Shown: positions 43,040 through 53,616 of the stretch, one piece after another | Layout: each line of letters opens with the position of its first letter | How positions within the stretch are numbered: the stretch's first letter is position 1 | From: an uncultured Gammaproteobacteria bacterium | Lineage (GTDB): Bacteria; Patescibacteriota; Patescibacteriia; Patescibacteriales; GWE2-39-37 | NCBI GenBank assembly: GCA_964443495.1 | Contig: CAYUCS010000001.1 | Span: 2,615 to 66,614 of the forward strand | Reading direction: 5' to 3' | DNA length: 64,000 bases | Made by a program: the position numbers and the translations under genes | Notes under the pieces: model-generated | The model's database searches: none | What the model saw: only the letters and a program-made list of their open reading frames with translations | What the model was told of the DNA's origin: nothing

Positions 43040-43057
43040 AATCACATCTGGTATAAT
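43028..43057 (+). promoter_or_regulatory. Sigma70-type promoter with extended -10
   Basis: TTGCGC (43028-43033), 18-nt spacer, TGgTATAAT (43049-43057). Confidence 0.5.
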
Positions 43058-43083
43058 TGGATAGAGATTATTCTATTCGAATT

Positions 43084-45585
43084 ATGGCCAAAGGAGGGGC
43101 AAAAATTCTGATATGCTTGTTCGCGCTGTCAGGATTTTTTTATTGCGTCGTTTCGTTGAATCTGGTTTTGCGCGGAAGAGGGACGCAGGCCACGTCATCT
43201 CCAATGGTATTGTTGAGTGAAATAGCCTGGATGGGCAGCGTTGAGAATGAGAATCATGAGTGGATCGAGCTGAAAAACGTCTCATCAGAAATCGTGGATT
43301 TGTCCGGCTGGACCGTGGCGGCGGCAGACGGCACGCCTGATATCGTACTTAACGGCACGGTCGGACCCGATGGATATTTCCTGCTTGAGCGCACCAGCGA
43401 TCAATCCGTTCCCAGCGTGACTTCAAGCCAGATTTATACCGGCGCCCTGGGCAATGGCGGAGAATCTCTTGAGCTTCGAGATGCGTCTGGCGTTCCTGTT
43501 GATTTTGTAGCCGCGAGCACCAGCTGGCCCGCCGGAAACAACCAATCCAAACAGACGATGGAGAGAGGAGATGACGGAAGCTGGCATGCCAGCATCTTGC
43601 CTGGCGGCACGCCAGGATTTGAAAATAGCATCCCTACCTCCACCGTTTCTGACGTCTTGTCGGATCAACCCGCTACGTCGACTGTTGCGACCTCAACAGA
43701 GGCGGCGCCGCCTGCGACGGCAACTACGGCCACGGGTGCAGGACTTCCCGGGTCAGCGGAAGCGGAATTGGAAATAACGGAGATATTGCCCAGCCCCAAG
43801 GGCAGTGATACGGCCGGAGAATTCATCGAGCTGCACAATGCGGGCGGCGCGCCAGCCGATGCCACTGGTTGGCGCCTTGCTAGCGGCGAGCGCCAGTACG
43901 TAATCGTTGCGTCATCTTCGCGTTCGAACGTCATCCCGCCGAACGGGTATCTGGCGATTTGGCGCAGCGAGAGCCGCTTAGTATTACCCAACGACCAGGG
44001 GCAAGCCATGCTGTATTCGCCGGAAAAAACCGCGCCGCGCCAAGCCGTCAGTTACGAAAAGGCCCCGGAGGGCAGGAGCTATGCCAAGAATGAGATAAGC
44101 GAATGGCGCTGGAGCGGACAGGCGACGCCGGGCGAAGCGAATGCCATCAAGACGGAAAACTTGCCTCCGGAAGCTGATTGGTCGGTAAAATCAGTAATCG
44201 AAGCCGGCGAAACGGTGCTGTTTGACAGTTCTGATACGACCGACCCGGAAGATGACAAGTTGTCGTTCGTTTGGCAATTCGGAGACGGCGGCAGTTCGAC
44301 CGATCCGAGTCCGACGCACGCATTCCAGTCATTAGGACGCTTCAAGGTCGAGTTGTCGGTGAGCGACGGAACAAACAGGTCTGCCAAATCGCGGACCGTA
44401 ACGGTCACCGCGCCCAAGGCGACTTCTACGGCAAAATTGCCGGCAATTCCGGCGGAAAAGGAATTTACGATAATCATCAACGAGCTTTTGCCCGATCCTG
44501 CCGGCGAAGATTATGACGGAGAGTGGGTGGAGCTGTATAATTCGGGAAGCAAGGATGTCGATCTGCTGGGCTGGCAGATCGATGACGCATCTGGCGGCAG
44601 CAAGGCTTTCAGATTCGAAGACAGCGTTACGGTCAAGCCGTCGTCATTTTATCTGCTTGATCGGGAGGATAGCGGCTTGGCCCTGAACAACGGTTCGGAC
44701 GAGGCTAGGATATTTGACGGCTTCGGCCGGCTTGTCGATTCGGTCAAATATAGCGGGGCAAAAGAAGGCTTGAGCTATTCTCGCGACAAGAAAAATAATT
44801 GGCAGTGGTCAGTACCGACGGCAGGCAAGCCAAACCAGACCGTGACAACCGCCTTTAAAAAAAATACGCCGACGTTGAAAAAGAAGGCGGCCGTTTCGCA
44901 GAAAAAAACACCTGCCTCGGCCAAAGCGGCGCGGTTTACCGTCGAAGGCGTAGTCACTGCCTTGCCGGGCCATGTCGCTAAGCAAGTATTTTATATCGCT
45001 GGCGCTGATTGCTGGCAGATATATAGCTATCGCCGCGATTTTCCTAAGCTGAAGCTGGGCGATCGGGTGCGGGCCAGCGGAGCAGTCGAAAACATCAAGG
45101 GCGAAAAAAGGCTGAAGACCAGCAAGTCAGCCGATATCGTGGTTTTGGGCAGCGGAGTCGCGGCTGCGCCCGATGAGGTAAGCTGCCAAGAAGTGGGCGA
45201 GGCGAAATTGAGCCGCTTAGTCAAGGTTTCCGGGGAGCTGACCAGAAAGACATCGTCTTCGTGGTATCTCGATGACGGCAGCGCTGAAGTGGCGATATAT
45301 GTCACCAAGGCGTTGGCCGATAATTTTACGAAAATGGAAGAGGGCGAGCATCTGGAAGTCGTAGGCTTAGTGACCCCGGCAGCTGCTGGGGTCAGGATCG
45401 TGCCACGCGGCATCATAGACATTGTTTGGGCCAGGGCGGCGCAGGCAGAGGAGTATCCTGAAGCGCCCTTGGCGATACCCGCAAGAGATTCTTCGCTGGA
45501 GCTCAGGCAGTATATCCAGCTAGCCGGCATCGGCATCCTTCTGGCCCTTTTCGGCTGGTGGCTGCGCCGGCGCTATGCCGTTTGA
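43084..45585 (+). CDS. Membrane-anchored surface protein with three lamin-tail domains, a PKD domain and an OB-fold-like module
   Basis: LTD signatures (LLSEIAWMGS...EWIELKN, ITEILPSPKG...EFIELHN, INELLPDPAG...EWVELYN). PKD block FDSSDTTDPEDDKLSFVWQFGDGGSS...HAFQSLGRFKVELSVSDG. C-terminal FTVEGVVTALPG...LGDRVRASG OB-like segment and a terminal TM helix. I prefer ATG 43084 because the TTG at 43057 overlaps the -10 box. Confidence 0.8.
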   Translation: MAKGGAKILICLFALSGFFYCVVSLNLVLRGRGTQATSSPMVLLSEIAWMGSVENENHEWIELKNVSSEIVDLSGWTVAAADGTPDIVLNGTVGPDGYFLLERTSDQSVPSVTSSQIYTGALGNGGESLELRDASGVPVDFVAASTSWPAGNNQSKQTMERGDDGSWHASILPGGTPGFENSIPTSTVSDVLSDQPATSTVATSTEAAPPATATTATGAGLPGSAEAELEITEILPSPKGSDTAGEFIELHNAGGAPADATGWRLASGERQYVIVASSSRSNVIPPNGYLAIWRSESRLVLPNDQGQAMLYSPEKTAPRQAVSYEKAPEGRSYAKNEISEWRWSGQATPGEANAIKTENLPPEADWSVKSVIEAGETVLFDSSDTTDPEDDKLSFVWQFGDGGSSTDPSPTHAFQSLGRFKVELSVSDGTNRSAKSRTVTVTAPKATSTAKLPAIPAEKEFTIIINELLPDPAGEDYDGEWVELYNSGSKDVDLLGWQIDDASGGSKAFRFEDSVTVKPSSFYLLDREDSGLALNNGSDEARIFDGFGRLVDSVKYSGAKEGLSYSRDKKNNWQWSVPTAGKPNQTVTTAFKKNTPTLKKKAAVSQKKTPASAKAARFTVEGVVTALPGHVAKQVFYIAGADCWQIYSYRRDFPKLKLGDRVRASGAVENIKGEKRLKTSKSADIVVLGSGVAAAPDEVSCQEVGEAKLSRLVKVSGELTRKTSSSWYLDDGSAEVAIYVTKALADNFTKMEEGEHLEVVGLVTPAAAGVRIVPRGIIDIVWARAAQAEEYPEAPLAIPARDSSLELRQYIQLAGIGILLALFGWWLRRRYAV

Positions 45586-47502: not shown

Positions 47503-47535
47503 ACAAAGCGGCAGCAAGCCGCTTTGTTTTTATTT
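47503..47535 (+). terminator. Rho-independent terminator
   Basis: ACAAAGCGGC-agcaa-GCCGCTTTGT followed by ttttatttt. Confidence 0.85.
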
Positions 47536-47542
47536 TAAACAA

Positions 47543-47571
47543 TTGACACATTAAGTAAAATGTATTATAAT
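47543..47571 (+). promoter_or_regulatory. Consensus sigma70 promoter
   Basis: TTGACA (47543-47548), 17-nt spacer, TATAAT (47566-47571). Confidence 0.65.
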
Positions 47572-47615
47572 CAAGCTTTGTTTAGTTCATTTTAATAGAG
47601 GGAGGCAGCAAAGAC

Positions 47616-48092
47616 ATGAAAGTTCGAAGACTGGTGATTTTTACCCCGATCAAGCATGAACCTGGCGAATCGTTCGAGCGTCATGAAACGGCTTATCCTA
47701 ACATGATCAGGTCAGCCATCAGGCTGGCAGAGATGTCCAGGAATGCTAAGACGCCCTTGAAAAAGCGCATCGTGCTTTATCCGCCAACGCAATGCGGCGT
47801 GGCAACCGGGTCGCTCCTGGCTCAATTGTTCCATGCGAAAGTCGCTGAAACGCCGGAGCTTTTGCCGGAAAAGCCCCATGACATGTATTGCCGCGACGAA
47901 GACGCGCTGGCAGCCGTAATCAAAAGCTATAGCCTGGAGTATGAGTTCATAATTCTGGTTACGCACATCAATCATGCGACGACTGAGCTTTTTCTGACCA
48001 CCAACCTCGGCAAACTCCTTTCGTTGTCCGTGCCCGGTTGGCACGTGTGCCAGCATTCCGTAATCTGGGAATGCGAGCCGACGCAGCTGTAA
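47616..48092 (+). CDS. Hypothetical protein, possibly a degenerate histidine-phosphatase (SixA/PGM-like) fold
   Basis: SD GGGAGG. VIFTPIKHEPGE replaces the RHG motif. RIVLYPPTQCGVATGSLLAQ and FIILVTHINHATTEL are spaced like the SPxxRAxQTA and VxHxP blocks. Confidence 0.4.
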   Translation: MKVRRLVIFTPIKHEPGESFERHETAYPNMIRSAIRLAEMSRNAKTPLKKRIVLYPPTQCGVATGSLLAQLFHAKVAETPELLPEKPHDMYCRDEDALAAVIKSYSLEYEFIILVTHINHATTELFLTTNLGKLLSLSVPGWHVCQHSVIWECEPTQL

Positions 48093-48188
48093 GCGGAACA
48101 GCAGCTAGCCCTCGAGCAATCGAGGGCTATTTATTTGACTAATACTGACGCAATGCTACTCTTAAAATAAGACAATTAAGAAAAAAAT

Positions 48189-48536
48189 ATGGCCAATATT
48201 TACGGCATTGACACTGAAAAACCGGTCTCTCCGGAAGACGTCCGGGACGCAATCGTCGAGTGCTTCGTGGCGGCTCATAAGGAGCAGTTGGACGAGCTCA
48301 AGGAGTATTTGGATGAAGCGTCGAAGGACAATTTCGAAGAGATGAAGCGGATAAATGTCCGCCAGCTGATGCGCGGCATGTTCGAGCAGGCGGGCGGCGA
48401 TTTTGATAAGCCAAGCAAGGAAACGATTATGGCTGCCCTGGAAAAGATCAAGGAGTTCGCAGTTAATTTCAGGAATCAGGATATCGTGGCCAGGCATTAC
48501 GGTGAAATCGTGAAGTTGGTGGCCTTATTGAAATAG
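48189..48536 (+). CDS. Hypothetical acidic helical protein (115 aa)
   Basis: An ORF with ordinary coding composition, on the same strand and close to its neighbours. No recognised domain. Confidence 0.45.
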   Translation: MANIYGIDTEKPVSPEDVRDAIVECFVAAHKEQLDELKEYLDEASKDNFEEMKRINVRQLMRGMFEQAGGDFDKPSKETIMAALEKIKEFAVNFRNQDIVARHYGEIVKLVALLK

Positions 48537-48551: not shown

Positions 48552-49847
48552 ATGAAGACTAATTCTACAAAAAAGGGCTGGCTGGCCATCGGGGCGATAT
48601 CGATGTTTCCGCTTCTGCCGTGGCTGGCGTTGAAGCCCCTGTCGGTCCGTTTTGCTGACGGCTGGGCGACGGCAATGAGCTTGGGCCAGCTGACCGGTCT
48701 GGTCGGCATGGCGATGTTCGCTTCGGCCATTATAATAAGCGCTCGAGCGAAGTGGCTAGATACTCTTTTCAACGGGCTGAACCTAGCCTATATCAGGCAT
48801 CACCAGGTCGGAGCGATCAGTTTTATCTTGCTGTTATTCCATCCGCTTCTTTTGGCGATCAAATATGGCCAATCCTCATGGCAGTCAGCCGCGCAATTTT
48901 TACTCCCAAGCGAAAGCGCAGCTTTGAACTACGGCAGGGCTTCGCTAGCCTTGATGATATTGCTTTTAGCGCTTACATTTTACGTGAAGCTGTCATATCA
49001 GACCTGGAAAATGTCGCATAAGTTTTTAGGGTTAGCATATTTTTTGGCGACCTTGCACTTGCTTTTTGTCTATAGCGACACAAGCCGAAGCTTCGTCCTC
49101 AAGGCCTATATGCTGGCCTTGTCATTTTCGGCCTTGGCAGCGGTTTTTTATCGGACAGTGGCCAGCCGGTTTCTGGTCAGAGTTTGCCGGTATCGGGTCG
49201 TCGCCGTAAACAGAATCAACGATGCTGTCGTAGAAATAGCCATGCGGCACGAGGATAAAGAGATGCCGTACAATCCTGGTCAATTCATTTTTATCTCGTT
49301 CAATCAGCCGGGGCTTGCCGAACAGCATCCTTTTACTATCAGTTCATCCGGAAGCCAGTTGTCGGTGGCTGTAAAAAAATTAGGAGACTACACATCTGAA
49401 TTGATCGGGCTGAAAATCGGCACTATCGCGACGATCGAAGGGCCGTATGGGCGTTTTTCATATCTTCGGTCGGTCAACAAGAAGCAGGTTTGGCTGGCTG
49501 GCGGCATCGGCATCACGCCGTTCCTGGGCATGGCACGCAGCTTAGGAGAGGTGTCGGATTACGACATCGACCTGGTTTATTGCGTCAAGAATACGGGCGA
49601 GGCAGCGTTTGCCGATGAGCTTAAGACGATCGCCGCAAGCCGTCCTTGGTTCCGTGTGCACCTCTTTTTTTCTGATGAGCAGGGGCGCATTTCAGCTTCT
49701 GCCGTCAGCCAGACTGTCGGCGGACTCAAGGATCGTGACTATTTCCTGTGCGGCCCTCCGGCGATGATGGGCGCAATCAAAGCGCAGCTAAAAAATTATG
49801 ATATTCCCGATGAACTTATGCACTCAGAGGAATTCGCAATGATATGA
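48552..49847 (+). CDS. NOX/ferric-reductase-type transmembrane flavocytochrome (FRD domain + FAD + NAD(P)H domains)
   Basis: Six hydrophobic helices with His pairs RHHQVGAISFILLLFHP and SHKFLGLAYFLATLHLL (H-x12/13-H). FAD motif HPFTISS. NAD(P)H motif LAGGIGITPF. C-terminal FLCGPPAMM. Confidence 0.8.
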   Translation: MKTNSTKKGWLAIGAISMFPLLPWLALKPLSVRFADGWATAMSLGQLTGLVGMAMFASAIIISARAKWLDTLFNGLNLAYIRHHQVGAISFILLLFHPLLLAIKYGQSSWQSAAQFLLPSESAALNYGRASLALMILLLALTFYVKLSYQTWKMSHKFLGLAYFLATLHLLFVYSDTSRSFVLKAYMLALSFSALAAVFYRTVASRFLVRVCRYRVVAVNRINDAVVEIAMRHEDKEMPYNPGQFIFISFNQPGLAEQHPFTISSSGSQLSVAVKKLGDYTSELIGLKIGTIATIEGPYGRFSYLRSVNKKQVWLAGGIGITPFLGMARSLGEVSDYDIDLVYCVKNTGEAAFADELKTIAASRPWFRVHLFFSDEQGRISASAVSQTVGGLKDRDYFLCGPPAMMGAIKAQLKNYDIPDELMHSEEFAMI

Positions 49848-50743
49848 TCAAAAAAATCGTCACCTTCAGCCTGTTCATTTTCGCGTCAGGCTTGGCTGGC
49901 ATAGTAATAGCCGGCTTTTTGGCGTCGCAACAAAAATGCGGCACTGCTCTCGTTCCAGGCTCCGGTCTGGCCGGCAGTCCGGCAGATGGAGCAGGCACTT
50001 CGACCCCGGGCCAGGTCGGCCCGGCCGGAACGGTCCTGTCGTCTGAGGAAGTGTCAAAGCATAATAGCGGCAACGACTGCTGGCAAATAATAAATGGCAA
50101 GGTTTACAGCCTTTCAGCTTATCTGAATCAGCATCCTGGCGGCGCGGAAACGATCGTTCCTTATTGCGGCAAAGAGGCCACGGCCGCCTTTTCCAACAAG
50201 GGCGGCCAAGGTAGCAATCATTCCGATTTCGCCTGGCAGCTTCTGGATAAATACCTGGTTGGATCGCTTGGCCAGGACACGCCTTCATCGGCCAGCTCGT
50301 CCGGCAGCTCACGGGCAGCTTCCCAGGCGCTTGCTGGCGAAATGAAGCCAGGGTTGCCCGACAATAAACCAGCCGCTGCAGCCGCCAAGGCGGGCGACAG
50401 CATCTCTTTGTCTGCCGCCGAGGCTGCTAAGCACAACACTGCCAAGAACTGTTGGCTGGTCGTTTCCGGGAAGATTTACGATGTATCAAGCTATCTAAGC
50501 AAACACCCGGCCGGTGCCGGAGCAATAACCCCCTATTGCGGCAAGGAGGCGACAGCCGCTTTCAGCGGCACTGGCGGCGGGCATGTCCACTCGAGTAATG
50601 CCTGGGGGCTGCTCAGCAGGTTTTATATCGGAACCATAGGACAATCGACCACGGCCTCAGCAATACAGCAAAACGCTGCAGGCGCACAGTCAGCAGCTCA
50701 GCAAGCGCCATCGGGAGGAGAAAGCGAGGAAGATGATGATTAG
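49844..50743 (+). CDS. Membrane-anchored protein with two cytochrome b5-like heme-binding domains
   Basis: ATGA start/stop overlap with the upstream gene. N-terminal TM helix. Two repeats (EEVSKHNSGNDCWQIINGKVYSLSAYLNQHPGGAETIVPYCGKEATAAF...NHSDF and AEAAKHNTAKNCWLVVSGKIYDVSSYLSKHPAGAGAITPYCGKEATAAF...HVHSS) are separated by Ser/Ala/Gly-rich linkers. Confidence 0.75.
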   Translation: MIKKIVTFSLFIFASGLAGIVIAGFLASQQKCGTALVPGSGLAGSPADGAGTSTPGQVGPAGTVLSSEEVSKHNSGNDCWQIINGKVYSLSAYLNQHPGGAETIVPYCGKEATAAFSNKGGQGSNHSDFAWQLLDKYLVGSLGQDTPSSASSSGSSRAASQALAGEMKPGLPDNKPAAAAAKAGDSISLSAAEAAKHNTAKNCWLVVSGKIYDVSSYLSKHPAGAGAITPYCGKEATAAFSGTGGGHVHSSNAWGLLSRFYIGTIGQSTTASAIQQNAAGAQSAAQQAPSGGESEEDDD

Positions 50744-50829
50744 GACGCCGGGAGGCGTGTTCAAGCGGTGCATACATGTGCCGCTTGTTTTTATTTGCCA
50801 TAATAAGCAATTTTTGTTGTAATGTGGGT

Positions 50830-53616
50830 ATGAATAAACCAAAGGGAACATTATTGATAATTGACGGCAACGCGCTGATCCATCGCAGTTTTCATGCTTT
50901 GCCGCCCACTCTGGTAACCAAGTCGGGCGAGATGGTTAATGCCGTTTACGGCTTCAGCGCTGCCTTGATCAAGGCGGTTAAGGAGTTCAAGCCGGATTAT
51001 GTCGCATTGACGATGGATAAAAAGGGGCCGACATTCCGACACGAGGAATATAAGGAATACAAGGCCACCCGAGTCAAGGCGCCCGACGAGCTTTATGCCC
51101 AATTCGACCGCGTCCGCGAAGTGGCGGCAGCTTTCGGCATCCCGCTGTACGAGCTGTCTGGTTTCGAGGCTGACGACCTGATCGGCACGATCTGCAAGCA
51201 GATTGACAGCGGGCTGAATAAGATAATCCTGACCGGCGATATGGACACTTTGCAGCTGGTAGATGACCACACCAAGGTTTACGCGATGAGCCGCGGCATC
51301 AGCGACGGGGTCTTGTATGACGAACCGGCGGTAATCGCTCGTTATGGCCTGAAACCGGGACAAGTTATCGATTACAAGGCTTTGCGCGGAGACCCATCGG
51401 ATAATATTCCCGGCGTCAAAGGCATAGGCGAGAAGACAGCTGTGGACTTGCTTAAAGAATTCGGTTCGTTGGAAAATATTTATAAGAATTTGGAATCGGA
51501 AAAGATCAAGGACCGTATTCGCGAGCTGCTCAGAAGCCAGCAAGCCGAGGCGGAGATGTCATATCGCTTGGCCACGATCCATCTTGGCGCTCCGATCGAA
51601 TTTGATGTGACCGGGGCAAAATTCGGCGATTTCGATCGCGCGAAGGTGGTCGAGCTGTTCAGCGAGTTAGCATTCAAGTCTTTGCTCGCCCGTGTGCAGG
51701 ACCTAGGCAAGAAGAATGGCAAAGGAGAGCAAGATGCCGTCATCGGGGTTGATAAATTCGAACGCAATAAGCAGCAATATAGTTACCGGTTAATTGACAA
51801 CGAGAAGGATTTTAAAGTTTTTTTCAAGGAATTAAAGGAGCAAAAAGCCTTTGTTTTTGACACCGAAACAAATTCCCTTGATACGCTCACTTGCGGACTT
51901 CTGGGAATAAGTTTTTCCTGGAAAAGCGAGGAGGCGTACTTCATTATGGTGGATACTTGTGAAAATAAGGCGAAAGATGGCAATGACTTGTTCAGCTATA
52001 ACAAGAAAACTGAAGGCAATTCCTGGCTCGAGCAGTTGCGCCCGGTGTTTGAGGATAAAAAGATTAAGAAATACGGGCACAATATCAAGTTTGATTTGGC
52101 GGTGCTGGCGTCACAAGGCATAAGGGTAAGGGGCGTGTCTTTTGATACGATGATCGCTTCATATTTATTGAATCCAGGAAGCCGTCAGCACAATTTGGAT
52201 GGACTGGCTTTTAGCGAATTGGGCTTTGAAAAAATAACCAAGGACGATCTGCTTGGGACGGGCAAAAACAAAGTCGCGTTCGAGCAAGTGCCGCTGGAAA
52301 AATTAGCCATTTATTCCTGTGAAGATGCTGATATCACCTGGCGTTTGGTCAATAAATTAAAATCAGAATTGGAAGAGCATAATTTGGAAAAGCTGTTTGA
52401 TACCATAGAGATGCCTTTAGTTGCTGTGCTTGCCAAGATGGAAGAGCTAGGGATCAGTTTGGATAATAATTATCTTGGCAAATTGGGCAAGAAATTGCAT
52501 TCTAAGATCACTGCTCTGGAAAAAGAAATTTTTGAGCAGGCCGGTCAAGAATTCAATATCAACTCTCCACAGCAGATGCGTGAAATTCTGTTTGAGAAAT
52601 TGGAACTCTCGACGGTTGGCGTCGGCAAGACTAAAACAGGCTTGTCGACTGCCGCCGATGAACTTGAAAAACTTAAAGACCAGCATCAGATCGTTAAGTC
52701 TATTTTGGAGTACCGTGAGTTAACCAAGCTGACCAGCACTTATGTGGATGCCTTGCCGAAGTTGATAAATGCTAAGACTAAGAGGATACACACCAGCTTT
52801 AACCAGACCGTGGCTGCGACAGGAAGACTGTCTTCATCCGAGCCTAATCTGCAAAACATTCCAGTTAAAGGAGAATGGGGACAGGCTGTGCGCAAGGCTT
52901 TTGTGGCGGCGCCAGGGTATAAGTTGGTCGGTCTTGATTACTCGCAAATCGAGCTACGCTTAGCCGCGCATTTTTCTGGTGACGAGCGGATGGTAAAGGC
53001 GTTTATTGAAAATGAGGATATTCACACAGCCACTGCCGCAGCAATCAATGAAGTGGAGCTGGGCCAAGTAACCAAACAGATGCGACGAGAGGCTAAGGCG
53101 ACGAATTTCGGCATCCTTTACGGCCAAGGCCCGCACGGCCTATCGCAAGCCGCCGATATTACTTTTTGGCAAGCCAAGGAGTTTATCGATCATTATTTCG
53201 AGGCTTATCCTGGAGTGAAAAAATGGATGGACCAGGCGATTGAAGAAGCTCGAAGAGCTGGCTTTTCCGAGACGCTGTTCGGGCGCAAGCGCAATCTGCC
53301 GGAAATCAATTCTTCAATCATGCAGGTACGCAAAGCAGCCGAGCGCATGGCCATCAACACACCGTTGCAAGGCACGGCGGCTGACATGATAAAGGTCGCG
53401 ATGATCCAGGTTCACGAATTGCTTCAAAAAAAATATCCGGCCGGCGAGGTCAGGTTGCTTCTGCAGGTGCATGACGAGCTTTTGTTCGAGATAAAAAGGG
53501 ATATGATCGACCAGTCGGTGCCGGAACTTAAAAAAATCATGGAAAATGTGCTACAATTAAAGGTACCGGTGATCGTCGAGTCAAAAATGGGCGAGAGCTG
53601 GGGGGATTTGGAGTAA
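50830..53616 (+). CDS. polA: DNA polymerase I (5'-3' exonuclease, 3'-5' exonuclease-like and polymerase domains)
   Basis: LLIIDGNALIHRSFHAL 5'-nuclease start. Pol A motifs DYSQIELR, RREAKATNFGILYG, QVHDELLFE. I prefer ATG 50830 over the upstream track start at 50776. Confidence 0.95.
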   Translation: MNKPKGTLLIIDGNALIHRSFHALPPTLVTKSGEMVNAVYGFSAALIKAVKEFKPDYVALTMDKKGPTFRHEEYKEYKATRVKAPDELYAQFDRVREVAAAFGIPLYELSGFEADDLIGTICKQIDSGLNKIILTGDMDTLQLVDDHTKVYAMSRGISDGVLYDEPAVIARYGLKPGQVIDYKALRGDPSDNIPGVKGIGEKTAVDLLKEFGSLENIYKNLESEKIKDRIRELLRSQQAEAEMSYRLATIHLGAPIEFDVTGAKFGDFDRAKVVELFSELAFKSLLARVQDLGKKNGKGEQDAVIGVDKFERNKQQYSYRLIDNEKDFKVFFKELKEQKAFVFDTETNSLDTLTCGLLGISFSWKSEEAYFIMVDTCENKAKDGNDLFSYNKKTEGNSWLEQLRPVFEDKKIKKYGHNIKFDLAVLASQGIRVRGVSFDTMIASYLLNPGSRQHNLDGLAFSELGFEKITKDDLLGTGKNKVAFEQVPLEKLAIYSCEDADITWRLVNKLKSELEEHNLEKLFDTIEMPLVAVLAKMEELGISLDNNYLGKLGKKLHSKITALEKEIFEQAGQEFNINSPQQMREILFEKLELSTVGVGKTKTGLSTAADELEKLKDQHQIVKSILEYRELTKLTSTYVDALPKLINAKTKRIHTSFNQTVAATGRLSSSEPNLQNIPVKGEWGQAVRKAFVAAPGYKLVGLDYSQIELRLAAHFSGDERMVKAFIENEDIHTATAAAINEVELGQVTKQMRREAKATNFGILYGQGPHGLSQAADITFWQAKEFIDHYFEAYPGVKKWMDQAIEEARRAGFSETLFGRKRNLPEINSSIMQVRKAAERMAINTPLQGTAADMIKVAMIQVHELLQKKYPAGEVRLLLQVHDELLFEIKRDMIDQSVPELKKIMENVLQLKVPVIVESKMGESWGDLE

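What the first reader, a model, noticed from the sequence alone, without database searches (positions are those of the whole stretch)
48552..50743. NOX-type transmembrane flavocytochrome translationally coupled to a membrane-anchored tandem cytochrome-b5 protein
Seen in sequence:
- ORF 48552-49847 has six hydrophobic helices and two histidine pairs with the NOX/FRE spacing (RHHQVGAISFILLLFHP and SHKFLGLAYFLATLHLL, that is H-x12/13-H).
- It also carries an FAD motif (HPFTISS) and an NAD(P)H motif (GGIGITPF).
- Its stop overlaps the ATG of the next ORF (ATGA at 49844-49847).
- That next ORF has one N-terminal TM helix and two ~75-aa cytochrome-b5-like repeats. Each repeat has HPGG or HPAG plus a downstream His, and low-complexity Ser/Ala/Gly linkers tether them.
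Established knowledge: the bis-heme His spacing and the FAD/NADPH motifs define NOX/ferric-reductase flavocytochromes. Stand-alone bacterial NOX homologues (for example SpNOX) are known. Cytochrome-b5 domains are uncommon in bacteria.
Inference: the pair forms a two-gene electron-export chain, NAD(P)H to FAD to two membrane hemes to extracytoplasmic b5 hemes. Possible roles are O2 or metal reduction, or electron exchange at the cell surface. This sits in a genome segment that otherwise shows no respiratory genes. I am not aware of such a NOX-b5 operon being described.
Basis: partly seen in the sequence, partly recalled or inferred. Interest (0 to 1): 0.65.

Follow-up and report, generated by a model that had tools for sequence, protein, structure and literature searches.

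The report
NOX-like reductase with tethered b5 partner
A tiny-genome (CPR/Patescibacteria) bacterium carries a widely conserved two-gene unit, a membrane NAD(P)H-driven heme/flavin reductase followed by a surface-tethered double cytochrome b5. It most likely carries electrons out of the cell, is real and untested, and its gene pairing had already been noted in a 2021 preprint.

Summary

- **ORF 48552-49847:** a full-length SpNOX-type flavocytochrome. It has six TM helices, invariant heme histidines H83/H97 and H156/H169, HPFTI, GIGITP, and an AF2 model matching SpNOX at TM 0.78-0.85.
- **ORF 49844-50743:** overlaps the first ORF by ATGA. It encodes an N-terminal signal-anchor helix, disordered Ser/Ala/Gly linkers and two canonical bis-His b5 domains. 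The closest structure is the periplasmic E. vacuolata b558, which shares both Cys.
- **Conservation:** in 80 species-level genomes with a homologue of the reductase, 49 have a b5 gene immediately downstream on the same strand. Of these, 39 lie within -4 to +17 nt and 15 have the same ATGA overlap.
- **Fusion:** one natural fusion (P0187) joins reductase, an extra TM helix and b5. That places b5 across the membrane from the NAD(P)H domain.

Best reading: NAD(P)H → FAD → two membrane hemes → tethered extracytoplasmic b5 hemes → an unknown external acceptor.

The novelty claim fails in part. A 2021 bioRxiv preprint reported ferric-reductase/cytochrome-b5 colocalisation in 185 CPR genomes, with function unknown. 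No experiment exists. The pair offers a candidate physiological protein acceptor for bacterial NOX-like enzymes, an open question in the SpNOX papers.

The parts
48552..49847 (+). SpNOX-type (NOX/FRE) flavocytochrome gene, 431 aa. It has a six-TM bis-heme ferric-reductase domain plus an FAD/NAD(P)H dehydrogenase domain.
   Evidence: ORF. Pfam PF01794/PF08022/PF00175. Profile hit to SpNOX 8qt6, E 4e-67, full length. AF2 pLDDT 91.6; Foldseek TM 0.78-0.85 to SpNOX. It passes all sequence filters of Hajjar 2017.
48693..49049 (+). Ferric-reductase transmembrane domain (aa 48-166) carrying the four heme-ligand histidines. The codons are H83 (48798-48800), H97 (48840-48842), H156 (49017-49019) and H169 (49056-49058).
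   Evidence: Pfam. All four His are invariant in 40 homologues. They align to SpNOX H69/H83/H129/H142.
49326..49340 (+). FAD-binding motif HPFTI (aa 259-263).
   Evidence: Sequence. H259/P260 are invariant and F261 nearly invariant. It matches H[PSA]F[TS][LIMV].
49503..49520 (+). NAD(P)H-binding motif GIGITP (aa 318-323).
   Evidence: Sequence. G318, G320 and P323 are invariant; I319, I321 and T322 are nearly invariant. [quoted passage not shown]
49844..49847 (+). ATGA start/stop overlap between the reductase gene and the b5 gene (translational coupling).
   Evidence: Sequence. The same 4-nt overlap occurs in 15 of 49 related loci, and 39 of 49 have spacing of -4 to +17 nt.
49844..50743 (+). 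Membrane-anchored tandem cytochrome b5 gene, 299 aa.
   Evidence: ORF. PF00173 matches twice, E 2.4e-42. 1cxy gives E 8e-18 by sequence and TMt 0.90 / rmsd 1.7 A by fold.
49856..49912 (+). N-terminal signal-anchor helix of the b5 protein (aa 5-23, preceded by MIKK).
   Evidence: Hydropathy 2.35. AF2 helix 3-30. The same MKK + hydrophobic helix is seen at the N-terminus of nearly all 49 partner proteins.
50030..50275 (+). b5 domain 1 (aa 63-144). Heme ligands are H97 (HPGG) and H126. The Cys pair is C79/C108.
   Evidence: pLDDT is about 80-93.
50402..50644 (+). b5 domain 2 (aa 187-267). Heme ligands are H221 (HPAG) and H249. The Cys pair is C203/C232.
   Evidence: pLDDT is about 85-90.
50708..50740 (+). 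Disordered acidic C-terminal tail (aa 289-299, ...GGESEEDDD), preceded by a conserved Gln/Ala-rich helix (aa 271-287).
   Evidence: Acidic tails occur in 12 of 49 partners.
50762..50797 (+). Intrinsic-terminator-like hairpin (11-bp stem, T-rich tail) 19 nt after the b5 stop. This is the likely end of the transcription unit.
48189..48536 (+). 115-aa ORF of unknown function, 15 nt upstream of the reductase gene with no terminator between. It may be co-transcribed. It is conserved only in the nearest Falkowbacteria relatives, so it is not a core part.
   Evidence: No Pfam, NCBIfam or PDB match.
48106..48139 (+). Terminator-like hairpin after the upstream 158-aa ORF. This is the likely upstream boundary of the unit.

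Best explanation
The two genes encode a self-contained electron-export module.

- The 431-aa protein is a SpNOX-type flavocytochrome. Its cytoplasmic C-terminal domain takes a hydride from NAD(P)H onto FAD.
- Single electrons then pass to the inner heme b (H83/H156) and the outer heme b (H97/H169) across the membrane.
- The co-translated 299-aa protein is held in the same membrane by an N-terminal signal-anchor helix. It displays two bis-His cytochrome b5 domains outside the cell on flexible linkers.
- These b5 hemes are the dedicated protein acceptor of the exposed outer heme. They hand electrons on to an external acceptor that is not identified; candidates are O2, Fe(III) or another metal, or a host or partner surface component.
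- For a fermentative CPR cell without a respiratory chain, this would be a sink that re-oxidises NAD(P)H or supplies reducing power at the cell surface.

Shown here: domain content, motifs, folds, gene coupling, conservation of the pair, and one fusion protein.

Inferred: heme binding, extracytoplasmic location, direct outer-heme-to-b5 transfer, the terminal acceptor and the physiological role.
For: - **Reductase identity:** Pfam domains; four invariant heme His, HPF, GGIGITPF, CGP and C-terminal F428; full-length profile match to SpNOX, E 4e-67; AF2 pLDDT 91.6 with Foldseek TM 0.78-0.85 to SpNOX.
- **b5 identity:** PF00173 twice. Over 54 partner domains, the ligand His are conserved at 94% and 91% and the Cys pair at 100% and 98%. 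The best solved relative is the soluble bacterial cytochrome b558, 1cxy, which has both Cys.
- **Functional link:** a b5 gene lies immediately downstream on the same strand in 49 of 80 species-representative loci. Of these, 39 are spaced -4 to +17 nt and 15 have the identical ATGA overlap. b5 is the only widely shared neighbour: 51 loci, against 14 for the next family.
- **Operon boundaries:** terminator-like hairpins bracket the unit and none lies inside it.
- **Fusion:** P0187 is reductase + seventh TM helix + b5 in one chain.
- **Outside location:** MKK + long hydrophobic anchor in nearly all partners; K/R bias 26 partners against 9; relatives with an LPxTG sortase signal, PKD, Big_2 or InlB B-repeat domains; the fusion topology.
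- **Variable acceptor in the same gene slot:** the slot holds 1, 2 or 3 b5 domains, and one locus also has an adjacent 8-domain b5 protein. Five DPANN archaeal loci with ApbE upstream instead have a TM-anchored linker peptide ending in TRAS.
- **Precedent:** SpNOX has a solvent-exposed outer heme and no identifiable O2 site. It reduces cytochrome c directly without O2, and its authors suggest an unknown protein acceptor (PMC11564096; PMC11031084). MsrQ-like PF01794+PF00175 proteins are proposed to feed extracytosolic flavoproteins (PMC8238504).
- **From general knowledge, not tested here:** NOX hemes are lower in potential than typical b5 hemes, so the step would be downhill.
Against: - No experiment exists for any member. 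Heme binding, topology and electron transfer are all predictions.
- About 30 of 80 related reductase genes lack a recognisable canonical b5 neighbour. The reductase can therefore work without it or with other partners.
- One remote b5 homologue (P0133) has no reductase nearby.
- I found no residues in the TM domain that distinguish b5-partnered from unpartnered reductases.
- No docking model could be made, because no multimer prediction or coordinates were available.
- CPR bacteria are generally thought unable to make heme (general knowledge), so four hemes per module must be scavenged. That leaves room for a heme-handling role.
- The fusion protein is a single sequence from one short contig.
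Confidence: 0.6

Rival explanations
1. Assimilatory metal (ferric or cupric) reduction. The module is a surface ferric reductase like eukaryotic FRE. The b5 domains and the acidic tail serve as the site where Fe(III) chelates are bound and reduced for uptake. This is a special case of the best explanation in which the terminal acceptor is fixed as iron.
For: The Pfam family is 'ferric reductase'. MsrQ-like clusters in other bacteria are linked to the VIT1 iron transporter (PMC8238504). A conserved poly-Asp/Glu C-terminal tail could bind cations. P-type cation ATPases lie near the gene in 7 of 80 loci and in L084.
Against: No iron transporter, Fur box or siderophore gene is adjacent in the window; the neighbours are FtsH, two unknown ORFs and PolA. 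The neighbouring ATPases are of the Cation_ATPase_C type, not heavy-metal pumps. SpNOX ferric reduction is very slow compared with cytochrome c reduction. Only 12 of 49 partners have the acidic tail.
Confidence: 0.15
2. A true NADPH oxidase. The reductase itself reduces O2 to superoxide or H2O2, for oxygen scavenging or as a weapon or signal toward the host cell. The b5 protein is an accessory, stabiliser or regulator rather than the electron acceptor.
For: SpNOX, the closest characterised relative, consumes O2 and makes superoxide in vitro (PMC5676040; PMC11564096). The protein passes every sequence filter used to define bacterial NOX.
Against: The SpNOX authors could not find an O2-reduction centre and doubt that O2 is the physiological acceptor. 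A redox-active bis-His heme domain, strictly conserved and translationally coupled, is an odd choice for a mere accessory. The slot can also hold eight b5 domains or a putative flavin-carrying peptide, which suggests electron carriers.
Confidence: 0.13
3. Heme capture and handling. The tethered b5 domains act as surface heme-binding (hemophore-like) modules that scavenge host or environmental heme for an organism that cannot make it. The reductase reduces the bound ferric heme to promote transfer or uptake.
For: b5 binds heme non-covalently. The variable number of domains on long tethers resembles surface heme-capture proteins. CPR genomes generally lack heme synthesis (general knowledge, not tested here). 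ABC-transporter ATPases lie near the pair in 10 of 80 loci.
Against: Both axial His and the compact b5 core are conserved as in stable electron carriers. No heme transporter or heme-degrading gene is adjacent in the window. The nearest solved relative, b558, is a soluble redox cytochrome.
Confidence: 0.09
4. A cytoplasmic b5 / b5-reductase system. The b5 domains face the cytoplasm and are reduced directly by the FNR-like dehydrogenase domain, as in NADH-cytochrome b5 reductase, nitrate reductase or Ncb5or. They would then feed a membrane enzyme.
For: The dehydrogenase domain is homologous to NADH-cytochrome b5 reductases (2eix, 7rom).
Against: The N-terminal MKK + hydrophobic helix predicts N-in/C-out. 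A conserved Cys pair, as in periplasmic b558, would not be expected in the cytoplasm. Relatives carry LPxTG, PKD, Big_2 and InlB-repeat extracellular modules. In the fusion P0187 a TM helix separates b5 from the dehydrogenase domain. No desaturase or P450 lies nearby.
Confidence: 0.03

Closest known systems
SpNOX (Streptococcus pneumoniae NADPH oxidase; PDB 8qq7, 8qt6) and the prokaryotic NOX group of Hajjar et al. 2017
   Same: It shares the single-chain architecture of six TM helices, two hemes b on His pairs in TM3 and TM5, and an FAD + NAD(P)H domain with a C-terminal aromatic residue. The profile E-value is 4e-67 over the full length and the model TM-score is 0.78-0.85. All NOX sequence filters are passed.
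   Different: Identity is only about 24%. The CPR family has a loop between TM3 and TM4 that is about 14 residues longer and contains a short helix. It comes with a dedicated, co-translated b5 partner gene, whereas no partner is known for SpNOX. No activity has been measured.
Ectothiorhodospira vacuolata cytochrome b558 (PDB 1cxy), a soluble bacterial cytochrome b5
   Same: It is the best sequence and fold match of each b5 domain (E 8e-18; 44% identity; TMt 0.90; rmsd 1.7 A). It has the same HP(G/A)G and second His and the same two Cys positions.
   Different: b558 is a single soluble domain. Here two domains are strung on disordered linkers behind a membrane anchor, followed by a Gln/Ala-rich helix and an acidic tail, and the gene is coupled to a reductase gene.
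CPR 'pFre'-cytochrome b5 gene clusters (bioRxiv 10.1101/2021.11.17.468889, section 3.5)
   Same: It is the same kind of pairing in the same group of organisms: a PF01794 gene with PF00173 gene(s) nearby, reported for 185 of 1427 CPR genomes, with all products membrane-anchored and the function unknown.
   Different: The preprint centres on operons with Tyr-ligated MAPR-like cytb5MY, two atypical b5-like proteins and a two-component system. The window has only canonical bis-His b5 domains and no two-component system. The preprint gives no gene order, coupling, topology or electron-path model. It states that the pairing is absent outside CPR, yet I find it in an Acidimicrobiales, a Dehalococcoidia and a Pacearchaeota assembly.
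MsrQ-like extracytosolic electron-transfer systems with ApbE-flavinylated partners (Meheust et al. 2021, PMC8238504)
   Same: A PF01794 membrane protein, often fused to a PF00175 NAD-binding domain, is proposed to pass cytosolic NAD(P)H electrons to an extracytosolic redox protein encoded next to it.
   Different: The partner there is an FMN-binding domain protein plus the flavin transferase ApbE, mainly in Actinobacteria. Here the partner is heme b5, and the genes flanking the pair are not ApbE.
MsrPQ (E. coli MsrQ/YedZ with periplasmic MsrP)
   Same: A ferric-reductase-domain heme protein hands electrons from its exposed outer heme to a docked extracytoplasmic protein.
   Different: MsrQ lacks the fused dehydrogenase domain and draws on quinol or Fre. 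Its partner is a molybdoenzyme with a defined substrate, not an electron-carrier cytochrome.

Membership tests
Prokaryotic NOX (SpNOX-type; criteria of Hajjar et al. 2017) | FAD motif H[PSA]F[TS][LIMV] | tested here: met
   HPFTI at aa 259-263.
Prokaryotic NOX (SpNOX-type; criteria of Hajjar et al. 2017) | [quoted passage not shown] | tested here: met
   GIGITP at aa 318-323.
Prokaryotic NOX (SpNOX-type; criteria of Hajjar et al. 2017) | Two His-x12-14-His pairs, at least 20 aa apart, in TM3 and TM5 of a six-TM domain | tested here: met
   H83-x13-H97 and H156-x12-H169, invariant in 40 homologues. Six TM segments by hydropathy and by AF2.
Prokaryotic NOX (SpNOX-type; criteria of Hajjar et al. 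2017) | Overall fold of TM plus dehydrogenase domains as in SpNOX | tested here: met
   Foldseek E 1e-26; TM 0.78 (query) / 0.84 (target) to 8qta.
Prokaryotic NOX (SpNOX-type; criteria of Hajjar et al. 2017) | NAD(P)H-dependent O2 reduction to superoxide/H2O2 and a b558-type heme spectrum | not testable with these tools
   This needs purified protein. The O2-site residues described for eukaryotic NOX were not identifiable even in SpNOX.
Cytochrome b5 (PF00173, bis-His class) | Pfam PF00173 above the gathering score | tested here: met
   143.2 bits against a cut-off of 23.7, with two stretches.
Cytochrome b5 (PF00173, bis-His class) | Two axial His: the HPGG-type His and a second His about 28 residues later | tested here: met
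   H97/H126 and H221/H249. The equivalents are conserved at 94% and 91% in 54 partner domains and are invariant in the 15-sequence alignment.
Cytochrome b5 (PF00173, bis-His class) | b5 fold | tested here: met
   AF2 domain pLDDT is about 80-93. Foldseek to 1cxy gives TMt 0.90 and rmsd 1.7 A, and many b5 structures match.
Cytochrome b5 (PF00173, bis-His class) | Heme b binding and a reversible Fe(III)/Fe(II) couple | not testable with these tools
   This needs recombinant protein and spectroscopy.
Secreted bacterial b5 of the E. vacuolata b558 type | Conserved Cys pair flanking the heme-binding core. I recall, without having checked it here, that these form a disulfide in b558. | tested here: met
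   C79/C108 and C203/C232 align with the two Cys of 1cxy. They are conserved at 100% and 98% in partner domains. Disulfide formation itself is not testable here.
Secreted bacterial b5 of the E. vacuolata b558 type | Extracytoplasmic location | tested here: inconclusive
   Only predictions are available: the signal-anchor helix, the K/R bias (26 partners against 9), extracellular-type fusions in relatives, and the seven-TM fusion P0187. No dedicated topology predictor and no experiment were available.
CPR pFre-cytb5 cluster (bioRxiv 10.1101/2021.11.17.468889) | A PF01794 gene with a PF00173 gene within 10 kb in a CPR genome | tested here: met
   The genes are adjacent and overlapping. The nearest named relatives are Candidatus Falkowbacteria at 72% identity.
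CPR pFre-cytb5 cluster (bioRxiv 10.1101/2021.11.17.468889) | The 'ancestral operon' content: Tyr-ligated cytb5MY, atypical b5-like A/B proteins and a two-component system | tested here: not met
   Both domains are bis-His. The neighbours are FtsH, two unknown small ORFs and PolA, and no other b5 lies in the 64-kb window. The locus belongs to the broader 185-genome set, not to the cytb5MY operon type.
MsrQ-like flavinylated extracytosolic system (Meheust 2021) | [quoted passage not shown] | tested here: not met
   The genes flanking the pair show no ApbE or FMN-binding domain. The partner is b5. ApbE does accompany homologous reductase genes in 9 of 80 other loci.
MsrPQ | A periplasmic molybdopterin MsrP partner and a reductase subunit without a dehydrogenase domain | tested here: not met
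   The partner is b5, and the reductase carries fused FAD/NAD domains.

The most novel reading that the evidence does not exclude
CPR bacteria, some DPANN archaea and a few other lineages may possess a minimal, cytochrome-c-free extracellular electron-transfer conduit. It would consist of an NAD(P)H-driven SpNOX-like pump of electrons across the membrane with an interchangeable tethered acceptor in the downstream gene slot. That acceptor would be one to three b5 hemes (with a further eight-domain b5 protein next to it in one genome), an LPxTG wall-anchored b5-like domain, or a peptide that carries only a C-terminal ApbE-attached flavin. Such a conduit would give organisms regarded as purely fermentative a respiration-like sink for reducing equivalents, possibly discharged onto the host cell. 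It would also identify the long-sought physiological protein acceptor of bacterial NOX-type enzymes.
Probability: 0.3. Interest if true: 0.75.

Novelty: new member of a known kind. Interest (0 to 1): 0.5.

Why it matters
- **Open question for bacterial NOX.** Both SpNOX structure papers (2024) say the physiological acceptor and role of bacterial NOX-like enzymes are unknown, and that the exposed outer heme suggests a protein acceptor. This conserved, translationally coupled, once-fused b5 partner is a concrete candidate. It can be tested with two recombinant proteins and a spectrophotometer.
- **CPR physiology.** These bacteria are usually described as lacking respiratory chains and heme synthesis. 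A four-heme, NAD(P)H-driven surface redox module bears on how they balance redox and interact with hosts. By the 2021 preprint's count the reductase domain occurs in roughly a fifth of CPR genomes, and the pairing in a subset of those.
- **Limits.** The gene pairing is not a new observation, both protein families are well known, and nothing is shown biochemically.

Tried and rejected
- **First genome scan:** a single-protein scan of genome contigs found nothing. It had to be repeated with an alignment.
- **Upstream ORFs as module parts:** the 158-aa and 115-aa ORFs are conserved only in the nearest Falkowbacteria and weakly in L084 (20% identity). They have no Pfam, NCBIfam or PDB match. I treat them as not core.
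- **Other shared neighbours:** clustering all ORFs of the 80 loci gave only b5 as a widely shared neighbour. DUF4352, ABC ATPase, ApbE and P-type ATPase are lineage-restricted. The two-component system that the preprint links to cytb5MY operons did not appear among the shared neighbour families I examined.
- **Docking residues:** I searched for TM-domain residues that separate b5-partnered from unpartnered reductases, as a possible docking signature. None was found at the thresholds used.
- **Unpartnered loci:** Pfam scans of downstream ORFs in 'no-b5' loci gave no hits for most. By eye, several are divergent b5-like or other tethered proteins.
- **Literature on b558:** a search for the b558 disulfide gave nothing usable. 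That point rests on my memory of the 1999 JBC paper.
- **Lipoprotein reading of the b5 N-terminus:** rejected, because ...LASQQKC is not a lipobox.
- **Complex model:** none could be made, because the structure tool takes one chain and returns no coordinates.
- **Whole-window scan:** I did not scan the window systematically against Pfam for heme or respiratory genes. The gene list looks like housekeeping genes, and no second b5 or reductase exists in the window.

Full report
**1. Observation**

The region holds two same-strand ORFs: 48552-49847 (431 aa) and 49844-50743 (299 aa). The stop of the first overlaps the start of the second as ATGA at 49844-49847.

The first protein:
- It matches Pfam PF01794 (aa 48-166), PF08022 (214-284) and PF00175 (315-410). 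PF08030 is just below its cut-off.
- Hydropathy gives six TM segments with more K/R on the predicted cytoplasmic side (9 against 4).
- The histidine pairs are H83/H97 and H156/H169, with 13 and 12 residues between them.

The second protein:
- It matches PF00173 twice (E 2.4e-42).
- It has one N-terminal hydrophobic helix (aa 5-23, after MIKK).
- It has two b5 domains, at aa 63-144 and 187-267, with HPGG/H126 and HPAG/H249.
- The segments between the domains are rich in Gly, Ala, Ser and Pro.

**2. What the proteins are**

*Reductase.*
- A search of 5.8 billion proteins gave more than 3,000 relatives. The closest named ones are Candidatus Falkowbacteria (72% identity), Parcubacteria, Buchananbacteria and Gottesmanbacteria, so the window is from a CPR/Patescibacteria genome. 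An exact look-up places both proteins on an unnamed 772-kb NCBI contig.
- In a 40-sequence alignment the four heme histidines are invariant. So are H259/P260, most of the GGIGITPF motif, C400/P402 and the C-terminal F428.
- A profile of this alignment matches SpNOX over its full length (8qt6, E 4e-67). The only sizeable difference is a loop between TM3 and TM4 that is about 14 residues longer in the CPR family.
- The AF2 model is confident (pLDDT 91.6, pTM 0.85). It shows a short helix in that loop. Its best structural matches are the three SpNOX entries (TM 0.78-0.85), followed by NOX5, DUOX1 and NOX2.
- The protein passes every sequence filter used by Hajjar et al. to define bacterial NOX.

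*b5 protein.*
- Each domain is most similar to Ectothiorhodospira vacuolata cytochrome b558 (1cxy, E 8e-18), including two Cys positions.
- The AF2 model shows helix 3-30, disorder at 32-61, a b5 fold, disorder at 148-184, a second b5 fold, a helix at 271-287 and a disordered acidic tail. 1cxy is the top fold match (TMt 0.90, rmsd 1.7 A).
- In a 15-sequence alignment of two-domain relatives, H97, H126, H221, H249 and the four Cys are invariant.

**3. Is the pair a unit?**

I fetched 80 loci from species-representative genomes that encode a relative of the reductase. I scanned them with an HMM built from the b5 domains.
- A b5 ORF lies immediately downstream on the same strand in 49 loci.
- With the first ATG taken as start, 39 of these 49 are spaced -4 to +17 nt from the reductase stop. 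Fifteen have the identical 4-nt overlap.
- The partners begin with a short basic stretch and a roughly 20-residue hydrophobic helix in nearly every case.
- Across 54 partner domains the two ligand His are conserved at 94% and 91%, and the two Cys at 100% and 98%.
- Clustering all ORFs of the 80 loci shows that b5 (51 loci) is the only widely shared neighbour. The next families are DUF4352 (14 loci), ABC ATPase (10), ApbE (9) and P-type ATPase (7).
- Two-domain partners are a minority (5 of 49). Homologues with three domains exist, and one Saccharibacteria locus has an eight-domain b5 protein right after a one-domain one.

In the window, terminator-like hairpins lie at 48106-48129 and at 50762-50787, which is 19 nt after the b5 stop. 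None lies between the 115-aa ORF, the reductase gene and the b5 gene. The 115-aa and 158-aa upstream ORFs are conserved only in the nearest relatives and match nothing known.

A chimeric query found one natural fusion, P0187 (561 aa). It consists of the reductase, then a further hydrophobic helix (aa 450-468), then a b558-like b5 domain. It sits on a 6.8-kb contig next to a PAS/GGDEF gene.

Checking remote b5 homologues in the reverse direction gave mixed results:
- P0135 has a reductase gene about 0.9 kb away on the opposite strand.
- P0142, on an archaeal contig, is followed by a reductase-domain-only gene.
- P0133 has no reductase gene nearby.
- P0146 is a DUF2231-b5 fusion.

**4. Topology**

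The dehydrogenase domain must face the cytoplasm, where NAD(P)H is. Several lines place b5 outside the cell:
- The b5 anchor has its positive charges on the N-terminal side. Across partners, 26 have more K/R before the helix than after it, 14 are equal and 9 have fewer.
- The conserved Cys pair matches that of the soluble bacterial cytochrome b558. I recall, without having checked it here, that b558 is periplasmic and that these Cys form a disulfide.
- Relatives in the same gene slot carry an LPxTG sortase signal or PKD-like domains. Other b5 relatives carry Big_2 or InlB B-repeat domains.
- In P0187 a TM helix separates b5 from the dehydrogenase domain.

All of this is prediction. No dedicated topology tool and no experiment were available.

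**5. Mechanism**

The best-supported reading is an electron-export chain:
1. NAD(P)H passes a hydride to FAD.
2. Electrons move to the inner heme (H83/H156).
3. They move to the outer heme (H97/H169).
4. They reach the tethered b5 heme(s).
5. They reach an unidentified external acceptor.

It fits what is known of the nearest characterised relative. SpNOX has a strongly solvent-exposed outer heme and no recognisable O2-reduction centre. It reduces cytochrome c directly under anaerobic conditions, and its authors write that oxygen may not be the physiological acceptor and that a protein acceptor may exist (PMC11564096; PMC11031084).

It also parallels two other systems. In MsrPQ, a ferric-reductase-domain protein feeds a docked periplasmic enzyme. 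In the 'MsrQ-like' systems of Meheust et al., PF01794+PF00175 proteins are proposed to feed ApbE-flavinylated extracytosolic proteins (PMC8238504).

The gene slot after the reductase appears to be a slot for a tethered acceptor. Depending on lineage it holds:
- one to three b5 domains;
- LPxTG-anchored divergent b5-like proteins;
- in five DPANN archaeal loci with ApbE directly upstream, a small TM-anchored low-complexity protein ending in (R/K)TRAS. This resembles the end of the ApbE flavinylation motif D-x-x-[S/T]-G-A-[S/T] (PMC12052999).

Rival readings, weighed in the structured fields, are:
- assimilatory metal reduction, which is a special case of the main model;
- a true O2-reducing NOX with b5 as an accessory;
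- heme capture and handling;
- a cytoplasmic b5/b5-reductase pair, which is contradicted by the topology evidence.

Points against the main model:
- Nothing is measured.
- About 30 of 80 relatives lack a canonical b5 neighbour.
- I found no partner-specific residues in the TM domain.
- The fusion is a single sequence.
- The heme source is unexplained.

**6. Comparison with what is known, and novelty**

Both protein families are well known. The pairing is also not new as an observation. A 2021 bioRxiv preprint on MAPR origins (10.1101/2021.11.17.468889) reports several points:
- PF01794 occurs in 1427 of 7645 CPR genomes.
- 185 of those have a PF00173 gene within 10 kb.
- The products are all membrane-anchored and may form a complex with an unknown CPR-specific function.

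That paper focuses on operons with Tyr-ligated cytb5MY proteins and two-component systems, which the window lacks. It does not describe gene order, coupling, topology or an electron path. I found no later or experimental work.

This analysis adds the following:
- a strict reductase-then-b5 order with start/stop coupling across many lineages;
- the anchor and Cys-pair evidence for an outside location;
- the fusion protein;
- the variable acceptor slot;
- occurrence of the pair outside CPR, which the preprint said it did not see. Examples are an Acidimicrobiales 1.4-Mb contig, a Dehalococcoidia contig and a Pacearchaeota contig.

I therefore file the window's locus as a new member of a known but uncharacterised kind.

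**7. Verdict**

The architecture and the likely electron-export role hold up. The claim of being undescribed does not. The function is untested.
- Interest is moderate (0.5). The locus gives a concrete, easily testable candidate for the unknown physiological acceptor of bacterial NOX-type enzymes, and it points to a heme-based surface redox module in organisms thought to lack respiratory chains. It is built from familiar parts, and its pairing has been noted before.

Noticed in passing
L016:4747-7128, L052:5139-7574, L053:5130-7706, L058:5168-7658, L059:5136-7616 (DPANN archaeal loci): The gene order is ApbE (flavin transferase), then the NOX-like reductase, then an ATGA-overlapping small ORF (80-139 aa). 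The small ORF is an N-terminal TM helix, a Thr/Pro/Ala low-complexity linker and a conserved C-terminal (R/K)TRAS followed by the stop. TRAS resembles the last four positions of the ApbE flavinylation motif [S/T]-G-A-[S/T]. This could be a tethered peptide whose only functional group is a covalent FMN. The association holds in all five loci.
   Followed up: partly
L054:7283-11479: In a Saccharibacteria locus the reductase gene is followed by a one-domain anchored b5 gene and then by a 1209-aa ORF with eight complete b5 domains. Each has DCW...HPGG...CGK...HS. The ORF also has an InlB B-repeat-like domain and Cys-rich C-terminal repeats. This could be a chain of b hemes reaching away from the membrane.
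   Followed up: partly
L089:586-2271 (protein P0187): This is a single-chain fusion of a NOX-like reductase, a seventh TM helix and a b558-like b5 domain, on a 6.8-kb contig next to a PAS/GGDEF gene. It is one sequence only, so an assembly error cannot be excluded.
   Followed up: partly
L012:1467-2156, L032:7368-8063, L074:7384-8100; L026:7399-8166: Downstream of the reductase gene in loci that my b5 HMM and Pfam called negative, there are TM-anchored proteins with a divergent b5-like core (C...CLYI.NGKVYEKGT..PH..PCG). Three of them have a C-terminal LPxTG sortase signal, and L026 has a PKD-like domain. The true fraction of reductases with a b5-like partner is therefore above 49/80.
   Followed up: partly
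L072 (Acidimicrobiales, 1.4-Mb contig, GC 61.5%), L007 (Dehalococcoidia, GC 62.8%), L034 (Pacearchaeota, GC 26.7%): The reductase-then-b5 pair also occurs in assemblies labelled as non-CPR bacteria and as a DPANN archaeon. The 2021 preprint reported no such colocalisation outside CPR. Binning errors are possible for the short contigs but unlikely for the 1.4-Mb one.
   Followed up: partly
L086:5001-6607; P0146/P0190/P0191: On an archaeal contig a two-domain b5 gene is followed by a 219-aa gene with only the ferric-reductase domain and no dehydrogenase domain. Other b5 relatives are fused to the membrane domain DUF2231 (PF09990), and one cluster of these has 74 member sequences. b5 thus seems to pair with several kinds of membrane modules.
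   Followed up: no
L021, L026, L029, L030, L033, L035-L038, L041, L047, L048, L050, L065 (about 0.1-1 kb after the b5-like gene): In Saccharimonadia a DUF4352 gene follows the b5-like gene in 14 loci, often with a second copy about 3 kb further on. Several of these loci also have a second, divergently oriented reductase copy and ApbE.
   Followed up: no
window 50762-50830: The longest polA ORF starts at 50776, inside the strong terminator hairpin (50762-50787) that follows the b5 gene. The real polA start is probably the downstream ATG near 50830 (MNKPKGT...).
   Followed up: no
window 47503-48139: After ftsH there is a terminator-like hairpin (47503-47527), then a perfect 12/12 sigma-70 consensus promoter (TTGACA-17-TATAAT, 47543-47571). 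This promoter precedes a 158-aa ORF of unknown function (47616-48092), which has its own terminator-like hairpin (48106-48129). The ORF is conserved in the nearest Falkowbacteria and perhaps weakly (20% identity) next to the reductase gene in L084.
   Followed up: partly
window 43057-45585: This is an 842-aa protein with three lamin-tail domains, a PKD domain, a weak OB-fold match, an N-terminal hydrophobic stretch and a hydrophobic C-terminal end. It is syntenic with the reductase/b5 pair in the nearest relative (L082). It is probably an unrelated surface protein.
   Followed up: no
window 50654-50740 (b5 protein aa 271-299): The close b5 relatives share a Gln/Ala-rich helix (IQQNA..AQSAAQQ) followed by a poly-Asp/Glu C-terminal tail. 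Acidic tails occur in 12 of 49 partners. The function is unknown; it could be cation binding or docking to a basic surface.
   Followed up: no
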